Of a stretch of 64,000 nucleotides of DNA, positions 31,001 to 34,000 are shown piece by piece; position 1 is the stretch's first letter; each line of letters starts with the position of its first letter. A program made the position numbers and the translations under genes. The stretch comes from the human T2T-CHM13v2.0 reference genome, Homo sapiens. The stretch lies in assembly GCF_009914755.1 (NCBI RefSeq), contig NC_060939.1; one strand, 5' to 3'. The notes below the pieces were generated by a model. It did not search any database. It worked only from the letters and a program-made list of their open reading frames with translations, and was not told the DNA's origin.

Positions 31001-34000
31001 GGGAAATTTATAAAATACAAAATAAAATTAATCTTTATGTGTGAAAAAACAAATTTCAACCTCACCAATTAAGCATAAATTAAAGCAACAGGGATAGGAC
31101 ATTTTTCACCCATTCAATTGAAAATATTTGAAAATGTGTTAACTCTTATTACTGTAACGAAGATGGCATAGTAATACACACTTGTATAAACTTGTTAATA
31201 ATGCAAATTGTAAGCTTTCTGAAGGGCAATTTGTAAATTCATATAAAAAAACATTAAAATATGCAAACCTGTTCCTCTAGTCATTTTGCTTCTGGGAGTT
31301 TATTCTAAGAAAATAATCAGAGACATGAAAAAAAATTATTTTAAAGGAAACTCAAACCAGCCTTATAAGGACAAATAATAGAAACAAATATGTCATAACA
31401 GAGTTAATTTTACATAAATTATAATTCTTCCATATAATTACAATGCACCTATTAAAAATTGGATTAAGAAAGTAAGAAAATGTTCAAGTAACATTAAGTG
31501 GAAAACTCTGGTTTTTAAAAGGTGTATCTGGAATGTGATCCCATTCTGTGCGTATACCTACATAATGTCAGGAAGACATTAGCTAAAATATTAACAGTAG
31601 TTATCTCGGGGTGGTGGAATCACAGTAAATTTTCTTATTTAGGTATTTTCCAAATGTTATACAATTAATAAGTTACTTTTAGAATCAGGAAAAGGTGAAA
31701 GCTACTTGTAAATATTGGCCACTTTTACCAAAAAAAAAAAAAATCACTAAGTAAAATAAATTTGAAAAGAATGTAAGTGTCTGTCTAAGGCAGGATCTGA
31801 GTTCCCTTGGCCAACATTGAGAACCAACTAGCTATTCTTCTCTTGCCTCTCAAAGATCAACATGCTGCTTAACTTTCAACTGGGAGAGAACTGCCCCTGC
31901 CCAGAGGAGATTCGGGAGGAGCTGTATGATTTCCATGAGGACCTTCTCCTTCACTGTGGTAAGCTGCCCAGAGAAAGGCTTTGTCCTTTTTTTACAAGAA
32001 GAGTCTGTTTTTGATTCCTTCATTAGAAAGCTAGTGGGAGGTTGGGAAGTTATTTTTGTATTTAAAATTGCAATACTGTCTTTCAAGACGTGACTATCCT
32101 AGCTACTTGTGTCAGAAAAGATACAGGAAGTAACCCTGACAGAATATATGACCAAAATTCCTTCTACCTAAAAGAGCCTGTGCTGAGATATAGAGAGGAA
32201 ACAGGGTTTCTAGCAAAAGAATGAAGACAACTGATCCTTATATAAACCTCACCTAATTTGCTTAAAGTTAGTTGGGACTCTCAGCTTCCAGGTGAGACAA
32301 GATTCTGATCTCTTTGCTTTTTAGCTATTAGGGGTGTGTGTGTGTGTGGGGGGGGGGTGGTGTGTGGGTGTGTGGGTGTGTGTGGTGTGTGTGTGTGTGT
32401 GTGTGTGTGTTTAGTAACTTCTGCCCTTAAGGCTTCTCAGCCAGCAATCTCTACTTGGATACATACCTACTGGTTTTAAGCAGCTCTCAGCATTTGTGTT
32501 GCTTGTACATGGGTAGGTTTAATAATATATGGGTAATTGACAAGCTTTTCATTTGAAATAACTCATTGTTAACTTCTTCTACAGATTCTAGGGCCACGTC
32601 CCCCAAACATTCTTCCAGAGGTTTCAACACTATAAGAGTGTATGTAATCCCCCTTACACTCTTTCAGAGGTTTTGGGGGTACAGATTCAAAACACATGTT
32701 TTAGGATTAAACTTACTTGTTGTTCTGATAAACAGGAAATCAATATTTTTTTTTCAAAAGCTATAAGATAGGTAACTATTCACGAGAATAGTATCTTTAG
32801 AAAGCCTGTAGTATCTTTAGAAAGTTCCAGAAGGATGGGAAGCAGTTTTTTAAATGTTCTTTCTGACACTATGATGGTTTCATGCACTGCTTTGGATTTT
32901 CACCCTGTTCTGTGGCTTGCTAGGGGTTCCTTTGGAAGAAGAGGAAGAGGAGGAGGAGGACACCTCCTGGACAGGAAAACTCTGTGCCTTGGTTTACAAA
33001 ATCAAAGGCCCACCCAAGCCAGAGAAGGAGCAGCCGACGGAGGAGGAGGAGAGATGCCCCAGTAAGTGACATTGCCTTTAAATGACAGTGTGCTCTTCTA
33101 AGACTTAATTAATGTAACTTTTTTTAAACAAATACTGTAAGATAGATAGGGGCTGCTTAACTTCAAAGAAAGCATCTGGGCAGTATGTTATAATTGCTGG
33201 TGGTTCAGTTACGTATTTTGGGTTCTGCCTTTCTTCTGATTGAAGAAACTTACTTTCAGACTGTCCTGAAACCTGAGATGGGTTGCTTGGTGTCTGTTCT
33301 TGCTGTCGTGTTCTACTTAGAGGTGCCTGTAAATACATGTCTGTTCTTCTTTTAGGTTTCCATAGTCTTCCTCTTTTAACCATTATTGTTTCTTAACGAT
33401 TATTGTTTCTGTCACTTCCCTTTGTGGTTCCTTAGCATTGAAAATTGCCCCAGAGAGAAAATAAAATAATAATAAAAGAGAGTTTGTGAAGGATATAGGA
33501 TATGAGTTTGGGGGGGTTGTTTTTGGATTTGGGGTATGATTTTTGAAAATGTAGCATCCTAGAAACTTTGACTTCCTATTTTTCAACAATGCCGAGCTTT
33601 GTCTAGATTTATCTCTCTAATCCTTATACTATAGATGACTCCTACCGTTTTGACCCATGATGAAACAAGATTATAACTTGTTCTGCAGGGCTGTTAGACT
33701 ATCTCTAGGACATGAAATTTCAAGAGGAAGATTGTCTTGTCTGAGTATTATATATAATCAGTCTACTCCTTGGTACAGATTCAGCAAATTTATCATTTGT
33801 TTAAAGAAGAAGGAATTTCTCAGGTTTAATATCGTTGCTTTTTATCTTGTTTCCTATTCCTATCCATCTTGGAACACGCTTTCAAATCGTAGACTAGAGC
33901 AATTGACTGTCAAGATAGGATCAGTTTGTCTGAAAACACTACTTTGGGGTTCATACATCTTACTGCCCTTACTGCCCTTTATATCGACCTTTCATCTTTG

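What the first reader, a model, noticed from the sequence alone, without database searches (positions are those of the whole stretch)
32593..32679. Competing arms form a switch-like cluster upstream of the same exon
Seen: a second copy of the motif, cccccttacactctttcagaggttt (32649-32673), matches the reverse complement of the downstream arm at 23/25. Between the two copies, aagagtgtatg (32634-32644) is identical to 34063-34073 of the downstream arm and can fold locally on tacactctt (32655-32663; 9-bp stem, 12-nt loop). So two upstream docking sequences compete for one distal partner, with a local decoy that can sequester one of them. Inference: mutually exclusive folds reminiscent of docking/selector systems (Dscam, ATE1). 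Alternatively, a scar of local template-switch duplication.
Basis: partly seen in the sequence, partly recalled or inferred. Interest (0 to 1): 0.7.

Follow-up and report, generated by a model that had tools for sequence, protein, structure and literature searches.

The report
Local inverted-repeat scar flanking RYR3 exon
Three copies of a short sequence found nowhere else in the human genome sit on both sides of one RYR3 exon and could clamp it into an RNA loop, but they look like the scar of a local copying accident with one dominant pairing, not a regulated switch.

Summary
Copy 1 (32593-32631, 35/39) and copy 2 (32648-32673, 24/26) are both complementary to 34046-34084. The 11-mer at 32634-32644 is an exact plus-strand piece of that arm. 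The motif occurs three times in the whole T2T genome, all here, and belongs to no dispersed repeat family.

The switch reading is not supported:
- Copy 1:distal arm is -62.2 kcal/mol and copy 2:distal arm is -44.7.
- In a 1591-nt fold, copy 2 pairs with the distal arm essentially never (ddG 18.5 kcal/mol).
- The decoy hairpin is about 45% populated locally and about 4% once the long helix forms.
- There is one enclosed exon (138 nt, in frame, RyR3 residues about 1909-1953) and no duplicate exon in the window, so the defining feature of Dscam/ATE1 systems is missing.

82 of 87 nt of the cluster tile as alternately oriented pieces of the distal arm. An exact 9-nt direct repeat brackets the cluster. 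A second locus-specific inverted duplication lies in the neighbouring intron.

Most likely this is a neutral templated-insertion scar that also created a 39-bp helix able to loop out the exon. Conservation, skipping and back-splicing could not be tested.

The parts
32580..32588 (+). Left copy of the exact 9-nt direct repeat TACAGATTC that brackets the cluster. It resembles a target-site duplication.
   Evidence: The partner is at 32680-32688, exactly 100 nt away. The 64-kb window holds 51 non-low-complexity direct-repeat runs of >=9 nt at spacing 60-150.
32593..32631 (+). Copy 1, the dominant upstream arm. It is 39 nt and 35/39 complementary to 34046-34084.
   Evidence: (I1). RNA duplex -62.2 kcal/mol. 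Present in the MFE of the 1591-nt segment with 32 expected bp.
32634..32644 (+). The 'decoy': an 11-nt piece in the opposite orientation, identical to 34063-34073 of the distal arm.
   Evidence: The 9-bp hairpin with 32655-32663 has probability about 0.45 in the local ensemble and 0.32 expected bp in the long-range ensemble. It can also pair with copy 1 (32607-32614), probability about 0.17, and does so in the MFE.
32648..32673 (+). Copy 2, the weaker spare upstream arm. It is 26 nt and 24/26 complementary to 34053-34078.
   Evidence: I2, D4. Duplex -44.7 kcal/mol. It pairs with the distal arm only when copy 1 is blocked. Otherwise it sits in its own hairpin in every sequential fold.
32674..32679 (+). 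TGGGGG tail, an exact 6-nt piece of the distal arm in plus orientation. It closes the copy 2 hairpin against CCCCC at 32649-32653.
   Evidence: exact in the arm. C5:G5 helix probability about 0.30 locally. Present in the MFE. Six nt alone is weak evidence of common origin.
32680..32688 (+). Right copy of the 9-nt direct repeat TACAGATTC.
32924..33061 (+). The enclosed RYR3 exon. It is 138 nt (46 codons, in frame) and encodes an acidic stretch of RyR3.
   Evidence: Annotation given with the finding. The translation matches residues 1909-1953 of the RyR3 chain 9c1e_B, E 3.7e-19, 43/45 identical. The 5' splice site reads CAG|GTAAGT.
32929..32940 (+). The start of the exon, complementary to the core of copy 1 (32610-32621). 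In the model it is a transient partner before the distal arm is transcribed.
   Evidence: Energy -21.7 kcal/mol. It is the best partner of copy 1 outside the distal arm among 380 windows scanned. It is purine-rich, so specificity is doubtful.
34046..34084 (+). Distal (downstream) arm, the single partner of both upstream copies. It lies 985 nt into the 25.7-kb downstream intron.
   Evidence: Blocking it costs 46.6 kcal/mol in the 1591-nt fold. In the 26 nt shared by all three copies it carries no private difference (read).
30276..30852 (+). Context: sense-oriented Alu pair in the intron two exons upstream. It is complementary to the antisense Alu at 34296-34624.
   Evidence: I4-I8, I10, I11, I13, I17: 45-104 nt arms at 71-87%. 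It also pairs with the antisense Alu at 28512-28807 inside its own intron (I1, I3, I12).
34296..34624 (-). Context: antisense Alu 212 nt downstream of the distal arm, with a perfect 18-nt target-site duplication.
   Evidence: (D6), (SRP-like Rfam hits on the minus strand).

Best explanation
The cluster is the scar of a local, templated (template-switch type) insertion, not a regulatory switch.

- A segment of about 91 nt (32589-32679) is built almost entirely from alternately oriented copies of one 39-nt source, now at 34046-84. It lies between two copies of a 9-nt direct repeat in the intron upstream of a 138-nt RYR3 exon.
- As a by-product, the pre-mRNA carries a locus-specific 39-bp near-perfect inverted repeat across that exon.
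- In the transcript, the distal arm pairs with copy 1 only. Copy 2 stays in its own small hairpin and takes over only if copy 1 is unavailable, so it is a spare and not a competitor.
- If the 39-bp helix forms before the 965-nt upstream intron is removed, it loops out the exon. At most this would cause low-level in-frame skipping or back-splicing.

Shown: the repeats, their uniqueness, their tiling, and the model energies. Inferred: the insertion mechanism, neutrality, and any splicing effect.
For: - Locus-unique. The 26-mer at <=3 mismatches has 3 of 3 genome matches here. The 21-mer core at <=3 mismatches gives 84 genome matches against 83 for the reversed control, so there is no dispersed family. 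The 341-nt flanks return only themselves.
- Tiling. 39 + 11 + 26 + 6 = 82 of 87 nt of 32593-32679 are pieces of the distal arm in alternating orientation; the 11-mer and the 6-mer are exact.
- An exact 9-nt direct repeat lies at 32580-88 and 32680-88.
- A second inverted duplication found nowhere else in the genome lies wholly inside the neighbouring intron (27460-27613 against 28172-28332, 82.6% over 161 nt). Such scars therefore arise here without flanking an exon.
- One-sided energetics, and copy 2 never engages in sequential folds.
- The local cluster is no more stable than shuffles.
- No Rfam family matches either arm.
- No duplicate exon.
- The six differences among copies include no two-sided (compensatory) change (read).
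- Template switching is described as a one-step source of inverted repeats and hairpins (PMC5453318, abstract and passages).
Against: - Conservation was not testable here, because no other vertebrate genome is at hand. Purifying selection on the arms cannot be excluded.
- The distal arm has no private substitution in the 26 nt shared by all copies, while each upstream copy has 2. This fits an arm under double constraint, but is not significant: by my arithmetic (not a tool call), 0 of 4 changes falling on one of three branches has p about 0.2.
- Two of three transitions keep pairing as G-U wobble.
- The repeat encloses exactly one in-frame exon.
- 39 bp is within the 30-40 nt range shown sufficient for circularisation in minigenes (PMC4201285, abstract and passages).
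- Stable conserved structures that loop out exons are reported as depleted and linked to lower inclusion (PMC8052449, passages). A -62 kcal/mol helix here is therefore unlikely to be wholly inert if it forms.
- The source is 1.4 kb away, further than the short-range events of the four-point template-switch model.
- The 9-nt bracket is a post-hoc observation.
Confidence: 0.6

Rival explanations
1. A functional exon loop-out clamp. The copy 1:distal helix forms in vivo and lowers inclusion of the in-frame 138-nt exon, or promotes back-splicing. Copy 2 acts as a redundant backup arm.
For: - A 39-bp helix at -62.2 kcal/mol, the strongest of 6808 window pairs between the upstream intron and the first 3 kb of the downstream intron.
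- Copy 2 takes over when copy 1 is blocked.
- The exon length is a multiple of 3.
- 30-40-nt repeats suffice for circularisation in minigenes (PMC4201285).
- Looped-out exons have lower inclusion (PMC8052449).
Against: - The 5' splice site reads CAG|GTAAGT, which I take from recall to be a full match to the consensus.
- The annotation supplied lists no alternative exon here, although a skipping isoform would not show in that table.
- No paper names a circular RYR3 RNA (0 papers).
- A circle of only 138 nt would be short for a single-exon circRNA (recalled, not checked).
- No RYR3 entry appears in the held supplements of the PCCR catalogue; the full catalogue is not held.
- Conservation is untested.
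Confidence: 0.25
2. A true competing-arm switch of the Dscam/ATE1 kind. The two upstream copies and the decoy set up mutually exclusive folds that choose between splicing outcomes.
For: - Two arms share one partner.
- The decoy hairpin is about 45% populated in the local ensemble.
- Before the distal arm exists, copy 1 is predicted to pair with the exon start. A sequence of alternative partners can therefore be drawn.
Against: - ddG is 18.5 kcal/mol in favour of one fold.
- Copy 2:distal has 7e-6 expected bp.
- There is only one enclosed exon and no homologous exon anywhere in the window.
- No covariation is possible or seen.
- The local fold is not exceptional.
Confidence: 0.04
3. Remnants of an old interspersed repeat, such as a transposon with terminal inverted repeats. 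The arms would then be transposon ends rather than local copies.
For: Inverted 39-nt arms 1.4 kb apart resemble terminal inverted repeats. A 9-nt direct repeat lies next to one arm.
Against: - There is no excess of the 21-mer in the genome (84 against 83 control) and no other 26-mer match.
- The flanks are single copy at the tool's sensitivity. That tool is insensitive, since it did not even return the inverted partner.
- A protein-coding exon 43/45 identical to the solved RyR3 chain lies between the arms.
- The direct repeat brackets the upstream cluster, not the pair of arms.
- The region is not among the masked stretches listed in the annotation, although that list holds only stretches of 100 nt or more.
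Confidence: 0.05
4. A DNA-level cluster of three binding sites for one sequence-specific protein, acting as an intronic regulatory element. The RNA complementarity would be incidental.
For: Three copies of a motif of about 26 bp within 1.5 kb, in either orientation.
Against: The annotation supplied lists no RefSeq functional element. No factor motif was tested here. The alternately oriented tiling with short fragments (11 nt, 6 nt) looks like a copying product, not an array of sites.
Confidence: 0.05

Closest known systems
Intronic complementary sequences that flank exons and promote circularisation or skipping (PMC4201285, abstract and passages read; the competition-of-pairings model of Zhang et al. 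2014 is recalled and was not read here)
   Same: An inverted repeat in the two introns flanking an exon. Its length (39 bp) is within the 30-40 nt shown sufficient in minigenes. Alternative pairings are present: copy 1, copy 2, and an Alu pair that encloses two exons.
   Different: The arms are not Alu or any dispersed repeat. No circular or skipped product is known. The enclosed exon is short (138 nt). The helix contains a G-U wobble, which that paper reports can inhibit circularisation.
Pairs of conserved complementary regions (PCCRs) that loop out exons (PMC8052449, passages read)
   Same: Long-range intronic helix across a cassette-sized exon. Stability is far beyond the typical background (median -14.7 kcal/mol for 50-nt window pairs here).
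   Different: PCCRs are defined by conservation, which could not be tested here. RYR3 does not occur in the 5 held supplementary files. The full catalogue is held elsewhere and was not seen.
Docking site/selector systems (Dscam1 exon clusters) and competing structures in ATE1. The Dscam papers appeared only in a search listing; the defining features are recalled.
   Same: More than one upstream sequence is complementary to a single distal sequence, so the pairings exclude each other.
   Different: There is no array of homologous alternative exons. Both arms lie upstream of the same exon, so the choice of arm gives nearly the same loop. The energies are grossly unequal.
Template-switch mutations that create inverted repeats and hairpins (PMC5453318, abstract and passages read; PMC8794818 and PMC10710096 seen in a search listing with abstract openings only)
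   Same: Reverse-complement copies of nearby sequence, a perfect 9-bp local hairpin, and alternating orientation of the copied pieces.
   Different: The source and the main copies are 1.4 kb apart, whereas the four-point model treats short-range events at one replication fork. The event is multi-step and bracketed by a 9-nt duplication, which is not part of that model.

Membership tests
Docking/selector mutually exclusive splicing (Dscam1, ATE1 type) | A cluster of homologous, mutually exclusive exon variants | tested here: not met
   blastn and tblastn of the exon against the 64-kb window, which holds both flanking introns entirely, find only the exon itself. The next best hits are E 0.023 (15 nt) and E 0.39.
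Docking/selector mutually exclusive splicing (Dscam1, ATE1 type) | One selector next to each variant, so that each pairing activates a different exon | tested here: not met
   Both upstream copies lie 49 nt apart in the same intron, upstream of the same exon.
Docking/selector mutually exclusive splicing (Dscam1, ATE1 type) | Alternative helices of comparable stability, so that more than one is populated | tested here: not met
   Duplexes are -62.2 and -44.7 kcal/mol. Enforced states are -424.9 and -406.4 kcal/mol. Expected bp are 32 and 7e-6. This is a thermodynamic model only.
Docking/selector mutually exclusive splicing (Dscam1, ATE1 type) | Conservation and covariation of the arms across species | not testable with these tools
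   No other vertebrate genome is held. The genome tool states that this genome has no relatives here.
Exon-flanking intronic complementary sequences (circRNA or loop-out type) | Reverse-complementary sequences in the introns on both sides of the exon, about 30-40 nt or more | tested here: met
   39 nt at 35/39, plus 26 nt at 24/26. Length criterion from PMC4201285.
Exon-flanking intronic complementary sequences (circRNA or loop-out type) | An observed back-spliced or skipped product that depends on the pairing | not testable with these tools
   No expression data are available. The literature search for a named circular RYR3 RNA found 0 papers. The broader RYR3 + circRNA search listed nothing on this exon.
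PCCR (pair of conserved complementary regions) | Both arms lie in conserved, non-repeat intronic regions | tested here: inconclusive
   Non-repeat status is supported. Conservation is untestable. RYR3 is absent from the held supplements.
Interspersed repeat or transposon remnant | Many related copies dispersed in the genome | tested here: not met
   3 of 3 matches to the 26-mer are at this locus. The 21-mer gives 84 matches against 83 control. Flank searches return only themselves, at limited sensitivity.
Template-switch or templated-insertion scar | The inserted sequence is explained by reverse-complement and direct copies of nearby sequence | tested here: met
   82 of 87 nt tile as four alternately oriented pieces of 34046-34084, two of them exact.
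Template-switch or templated-insertion scar | An ancestral state without the insertion in an outgroup | not testable with these tools
   No orthologous sequences are at hand.

The most novel reading that the evidence does not exclude
A non-transposon, RYR3-specific RNA device times the splicing of the exon that encodes residues about 1909-1953.

- During transcription, copy 1 first masks the purine-rich start of the exon (32929-32940).
- About 1.1 kb later the distal arm displaces it, and the resulting 39-bp clamp loops the exon out.
- Copy 2 and the decoy tune how much of copy 1 is free.
- The outcome would be tissue-dependent in-frame skipping, or a small circular RNA, in a calcium-release channel gene.

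The sequential-fold model allows this order of events, and nothing here excludes it. No conservation, expression or probing data support it either.
Probability: 0.08. Interest if true: 0.6.

Novelty: new member of a known kind. Interest (0 to 1): 0.25.

Why it matters
If the helix acts in vivo, it would be a clean case of long-range RNA structure controlling an in-frame exon of a ryanodine receptor without any transposon. That would make it easy to test with arm mutations and compensatory changes.

If it is a neutral scar, as seems likelier, it still has value. It illustrates how template-switch-type copying can create a strong exon-flanking inverted repeat in one step. It also shows that such repeats can look like 'switches' to a reader without any regulation behind them.

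Tried and rejected
- Dispersed repeat or transposon origin. The genome-wide pattern counts equal the control and the flank searches return only themselves. Rejected, with a caveat: no RepeatMasker/Dfam was available, and the flank search is insensitive, since it missed the 39-nt partner.
- Known RNA family. Rfam at E <= 1 over 31800-34800 gave 6 matches, none on either arm; four are on the Alu at 34339-34620.
- Hidden duplicate exon (mutually exclusive pair). None found.
- Extended inverted homology beyond 39 nt. Only a weak gapped extension of about 30 nt outward appeared under lax scoring. Not relied on.
- PCCR catalogue. No RYR3 in the 5 held supplementary files of PMC8052449 or in the 1 held file of PMC10691357. 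The full catalogues are not held.
- Literature on RYR3 splice variants and circular RNAs. Nothing concerns this exon. The one RYR3 splicing passage read (PMC13215552) concerns other variants.
- Earlier findings of this scan.
- Other strong duplexes (32319-32379 with 34582-35302). These come from the GT/G-rich microsatellite at 32333-32411 pairing with C-rich sequence. Treated as low-complexity pairing.
- A mis-registered helix (copy 1 against decoy, all zeros) was corrected (about 0.17).
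Full report
**What is there**

Reading the window and the repeat finder confirm every element of the finding.
- The upstream intron of the 138-nt RYR3 exon (32924-33061) holds two direct copies of a motif 49 nt apart. Copy 1 is 32593-32631 and copy 2 is 32648-32673.
- The downstream intron holds one inverted copy, 34046-34084.
- Copy 2 is 24/26 complementary (I2).
- The spacer between the copies holds an 11-mer (32634-32644) that is an exact plus-orientation piece of the distal arm.

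**Is it chance, or a repeat family?**

It is neither.
- No dinucleotide shuffle of the window (0 of 100) gave a single match to the 26-mer at up to 3 mismatches, against 3 observed.
- In the whole 3.1-Gb genome the same search finds 3 matches, all at this locus. The reversed-pattern control finds 1.
- The 21-nt core at up to 3 mismatches gives 84 genome matches against 83 for the control. Even a diverged dispersed family of modest size is therefore unlikely.
- The 341-nt stretches around both sites return only themselves. That search is insensitive, since it did not return the 39-nt partner.
- Rfam finds nothing on either arm.
- The three copies are therefore products of local copying.

**Anatomy of the upstream cluster**

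- The 87 nt from 32593 to 32679 can be tiled by four alternately oriented pieces of the one distal arm: the reverse complement of all 39 nt, then 11 nt direct (exact), then the reverse complement of 26 nt, then 6 nt direct (exact). That covers 82 of 87 nt. The 6-nt piece is too short to carry weight on its own.
- The cluster is bracketed by an exact 9-nt direct repeat at 32580-32588 and 32680-32688, 100 nt apart. The window holds 51 such runs in 64 kb, so one that fits the cluster's edges is unlikely by chance.
- In the 26 nt common to all copies, the distal arm equals the consensus. Each upstream copy has two private differences. No position shows a two-sided, pairing-restoring change (read).
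- The neighbouring intron holds a second inverted duplication that also occurs nowhere else in the genome: 27460-27613 against 28172-28332, 82.6% over 161 nt. A direct repeat lies beside it. It flanks no exon.
Template switching is described as a one-step source of inverted repeats and hairpins (PMC5453318, abstract and passages). The 1.4-kb distance to the source is larger than the short-range events treated there.

**How the RNA would fold**

- Duplex energies are -62.2 kcal/mol for copy 1 with the distal arm, -44.7 for copy 2 with the distal arm, and -12.8 for decoy with copy 2.
- Copy 1 with the distal arm is the strongest of 6808 window pairs between the upstream intron and the first 3 kb of the downstream intron (median -14.7). 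The next strongest unrelated pairs come from a GT/G-rich microsatellite.
- In a 1591-nt segment the minimum-energy fold contains the copy 1 helix. Expected base pairs are 32 for copy 1 and 7e-6 for copy 2.
- Enforcing each helix in turn gives -424.9 and -406.4 kcal/mol, a difference of 18.5 kcal/mol.
- Copy 2 pairs with the distal arm only if copy 1 is made unavailable.
- In folds of growing transcripts, copy 2 sits in its own hairpin throughout. Copy 1 pairs first with local sequence, then with the start of the exon (32929-32940, -21.7 kcal/mol), and jumps to the distal arm as soon as it exists.
- The decoy hairpin has about 0.45 probability in the local ensemble, but only 0.32 expected base pairs of 9 once the long helix is allowed.
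- The local cluster folds no better than shuffled sequence (z -1.03; 33 of 200 shuffles fold as well).
- In the thermodynamic model, then, this is one dominant clamp with a spare arm and not a bistable switch. Kinetics in the cell were not modelled.

**The exon and its surroundings**

- The exon encodes an acidic stretch matching residues 1909-1953 of a solved RyR3 chain (43/45 identical).
- It is 46 codons long, so skipping would keep the reading frame.
- Its 5' splice site reads CAG|GTAAGT.
- No second copy of the exon exists in the window, which contains both flanking introns entirely.
- Sense Alus at 30276-30852 and an antisense Alu at 34296-34624 form a much longer pairing that encloses this exon and the previous one. 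The sense Alus can also pair with an antisense Alu in their own intron.

**Comparison with known systems**

- It works most like exon-flanking intronic complementary sequences. Inverted repeats of 30-40 nt suffice for circularisation in minigenes, although more than thermodynamics decides the outcome and G-U wobbles can inhibit it (PMC4201285, abstract and passages). Stable conserved pairs that loop out exons go with lower inclusion and are depleted overall (PMC8052449, passages).
- It is not a member of the Dscam/ATE1 kind. There is no exon array, both arms serve the same exon, and the energies are grossly unequal.
- Whether it qualifies as a conserved complementary pair could not be tested. 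RYR3 is absent from the held supplements, and the full catalogues are not held.
- No paper in the library names a circular RYR3 RNA. The RYR3 splicing papers found concern other regions.

**Verdict**

The switch interpretation is not supported. The scar alternative is favoured, at about 0.6.
- A real but simple loop-out effect of the 39-bp helix remains possible, at about 0.25.
- The missing tests are cross-species alignment, junction reads and structure probing. None could be run here.

Noticed in passing
window 27126-28349: A second locus-specific inverted duplication lies wholly inside the intron 26221-31855. It is 27460-27613 against 28172-28332 (82.6% over 161 nt), with a direct repeat beside it (27135-27242 against 27792-27887, 74%). 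A genome search finds only the sequence itself and its partner.
   Followed up: partly
window 32610-32621 and 32929-32940: The pyrimidine-rich core of copy 1 is complementary to the purine-rich first bases of the exon (12 bp including one G-U; -21.7 kcal/mol). This is the best partner of copy 1 outside the distal arm, and it is occupied in sequential folds until the distal arm appears. It may be unspecific GAA/UUC pairing.
   Followed up: partly
window 32333-32411: A GT-repeat and G-run microsatellite lies about 515 nt upstream of the exon. It gives strong but unspecific predicted pairing with C-rich sequence at 34582-35302. UG repeats are known protein-binding sites (recalled); not examined.
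   Followed up: no
window 30276-30852, 28512-28807, 34296-34624: Alu elements in opposite orientation can pair within one intron, or across the two exons 31856-31958 and 32924-33061. This is the usual setting for a two-exon (241-nt) circular RNA. The Alu at 34296-34624 has a perfect 18-nt target-site duplication (D6).
   Followed up: no
window 32789-32824: An exact 16-nt direct repeat with 20-nt period (TAGTATCTTTAGAAAG twice) lies about 100-135 nt upstream of the 3' splice site (D2). It is a small tandem duplication in the region where a branch point could lie.
   Followed up: no
window 33376-33409: A 17-nt tandem duplication (16/17 identical) sits in the downstream intron (D8).
   Followed up: no
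window 32649-32674: Copy 2 reads like a 3' splice site: CTTAC, then a pyrimidine run, then CAG|AG. Copy 1 reads ...TTCTTCCAG|AG. Pairing with the distal arm would mask these pseudo-sites. No matching 5' site for a cryptic exon was seen by eye.
   Followed up: no
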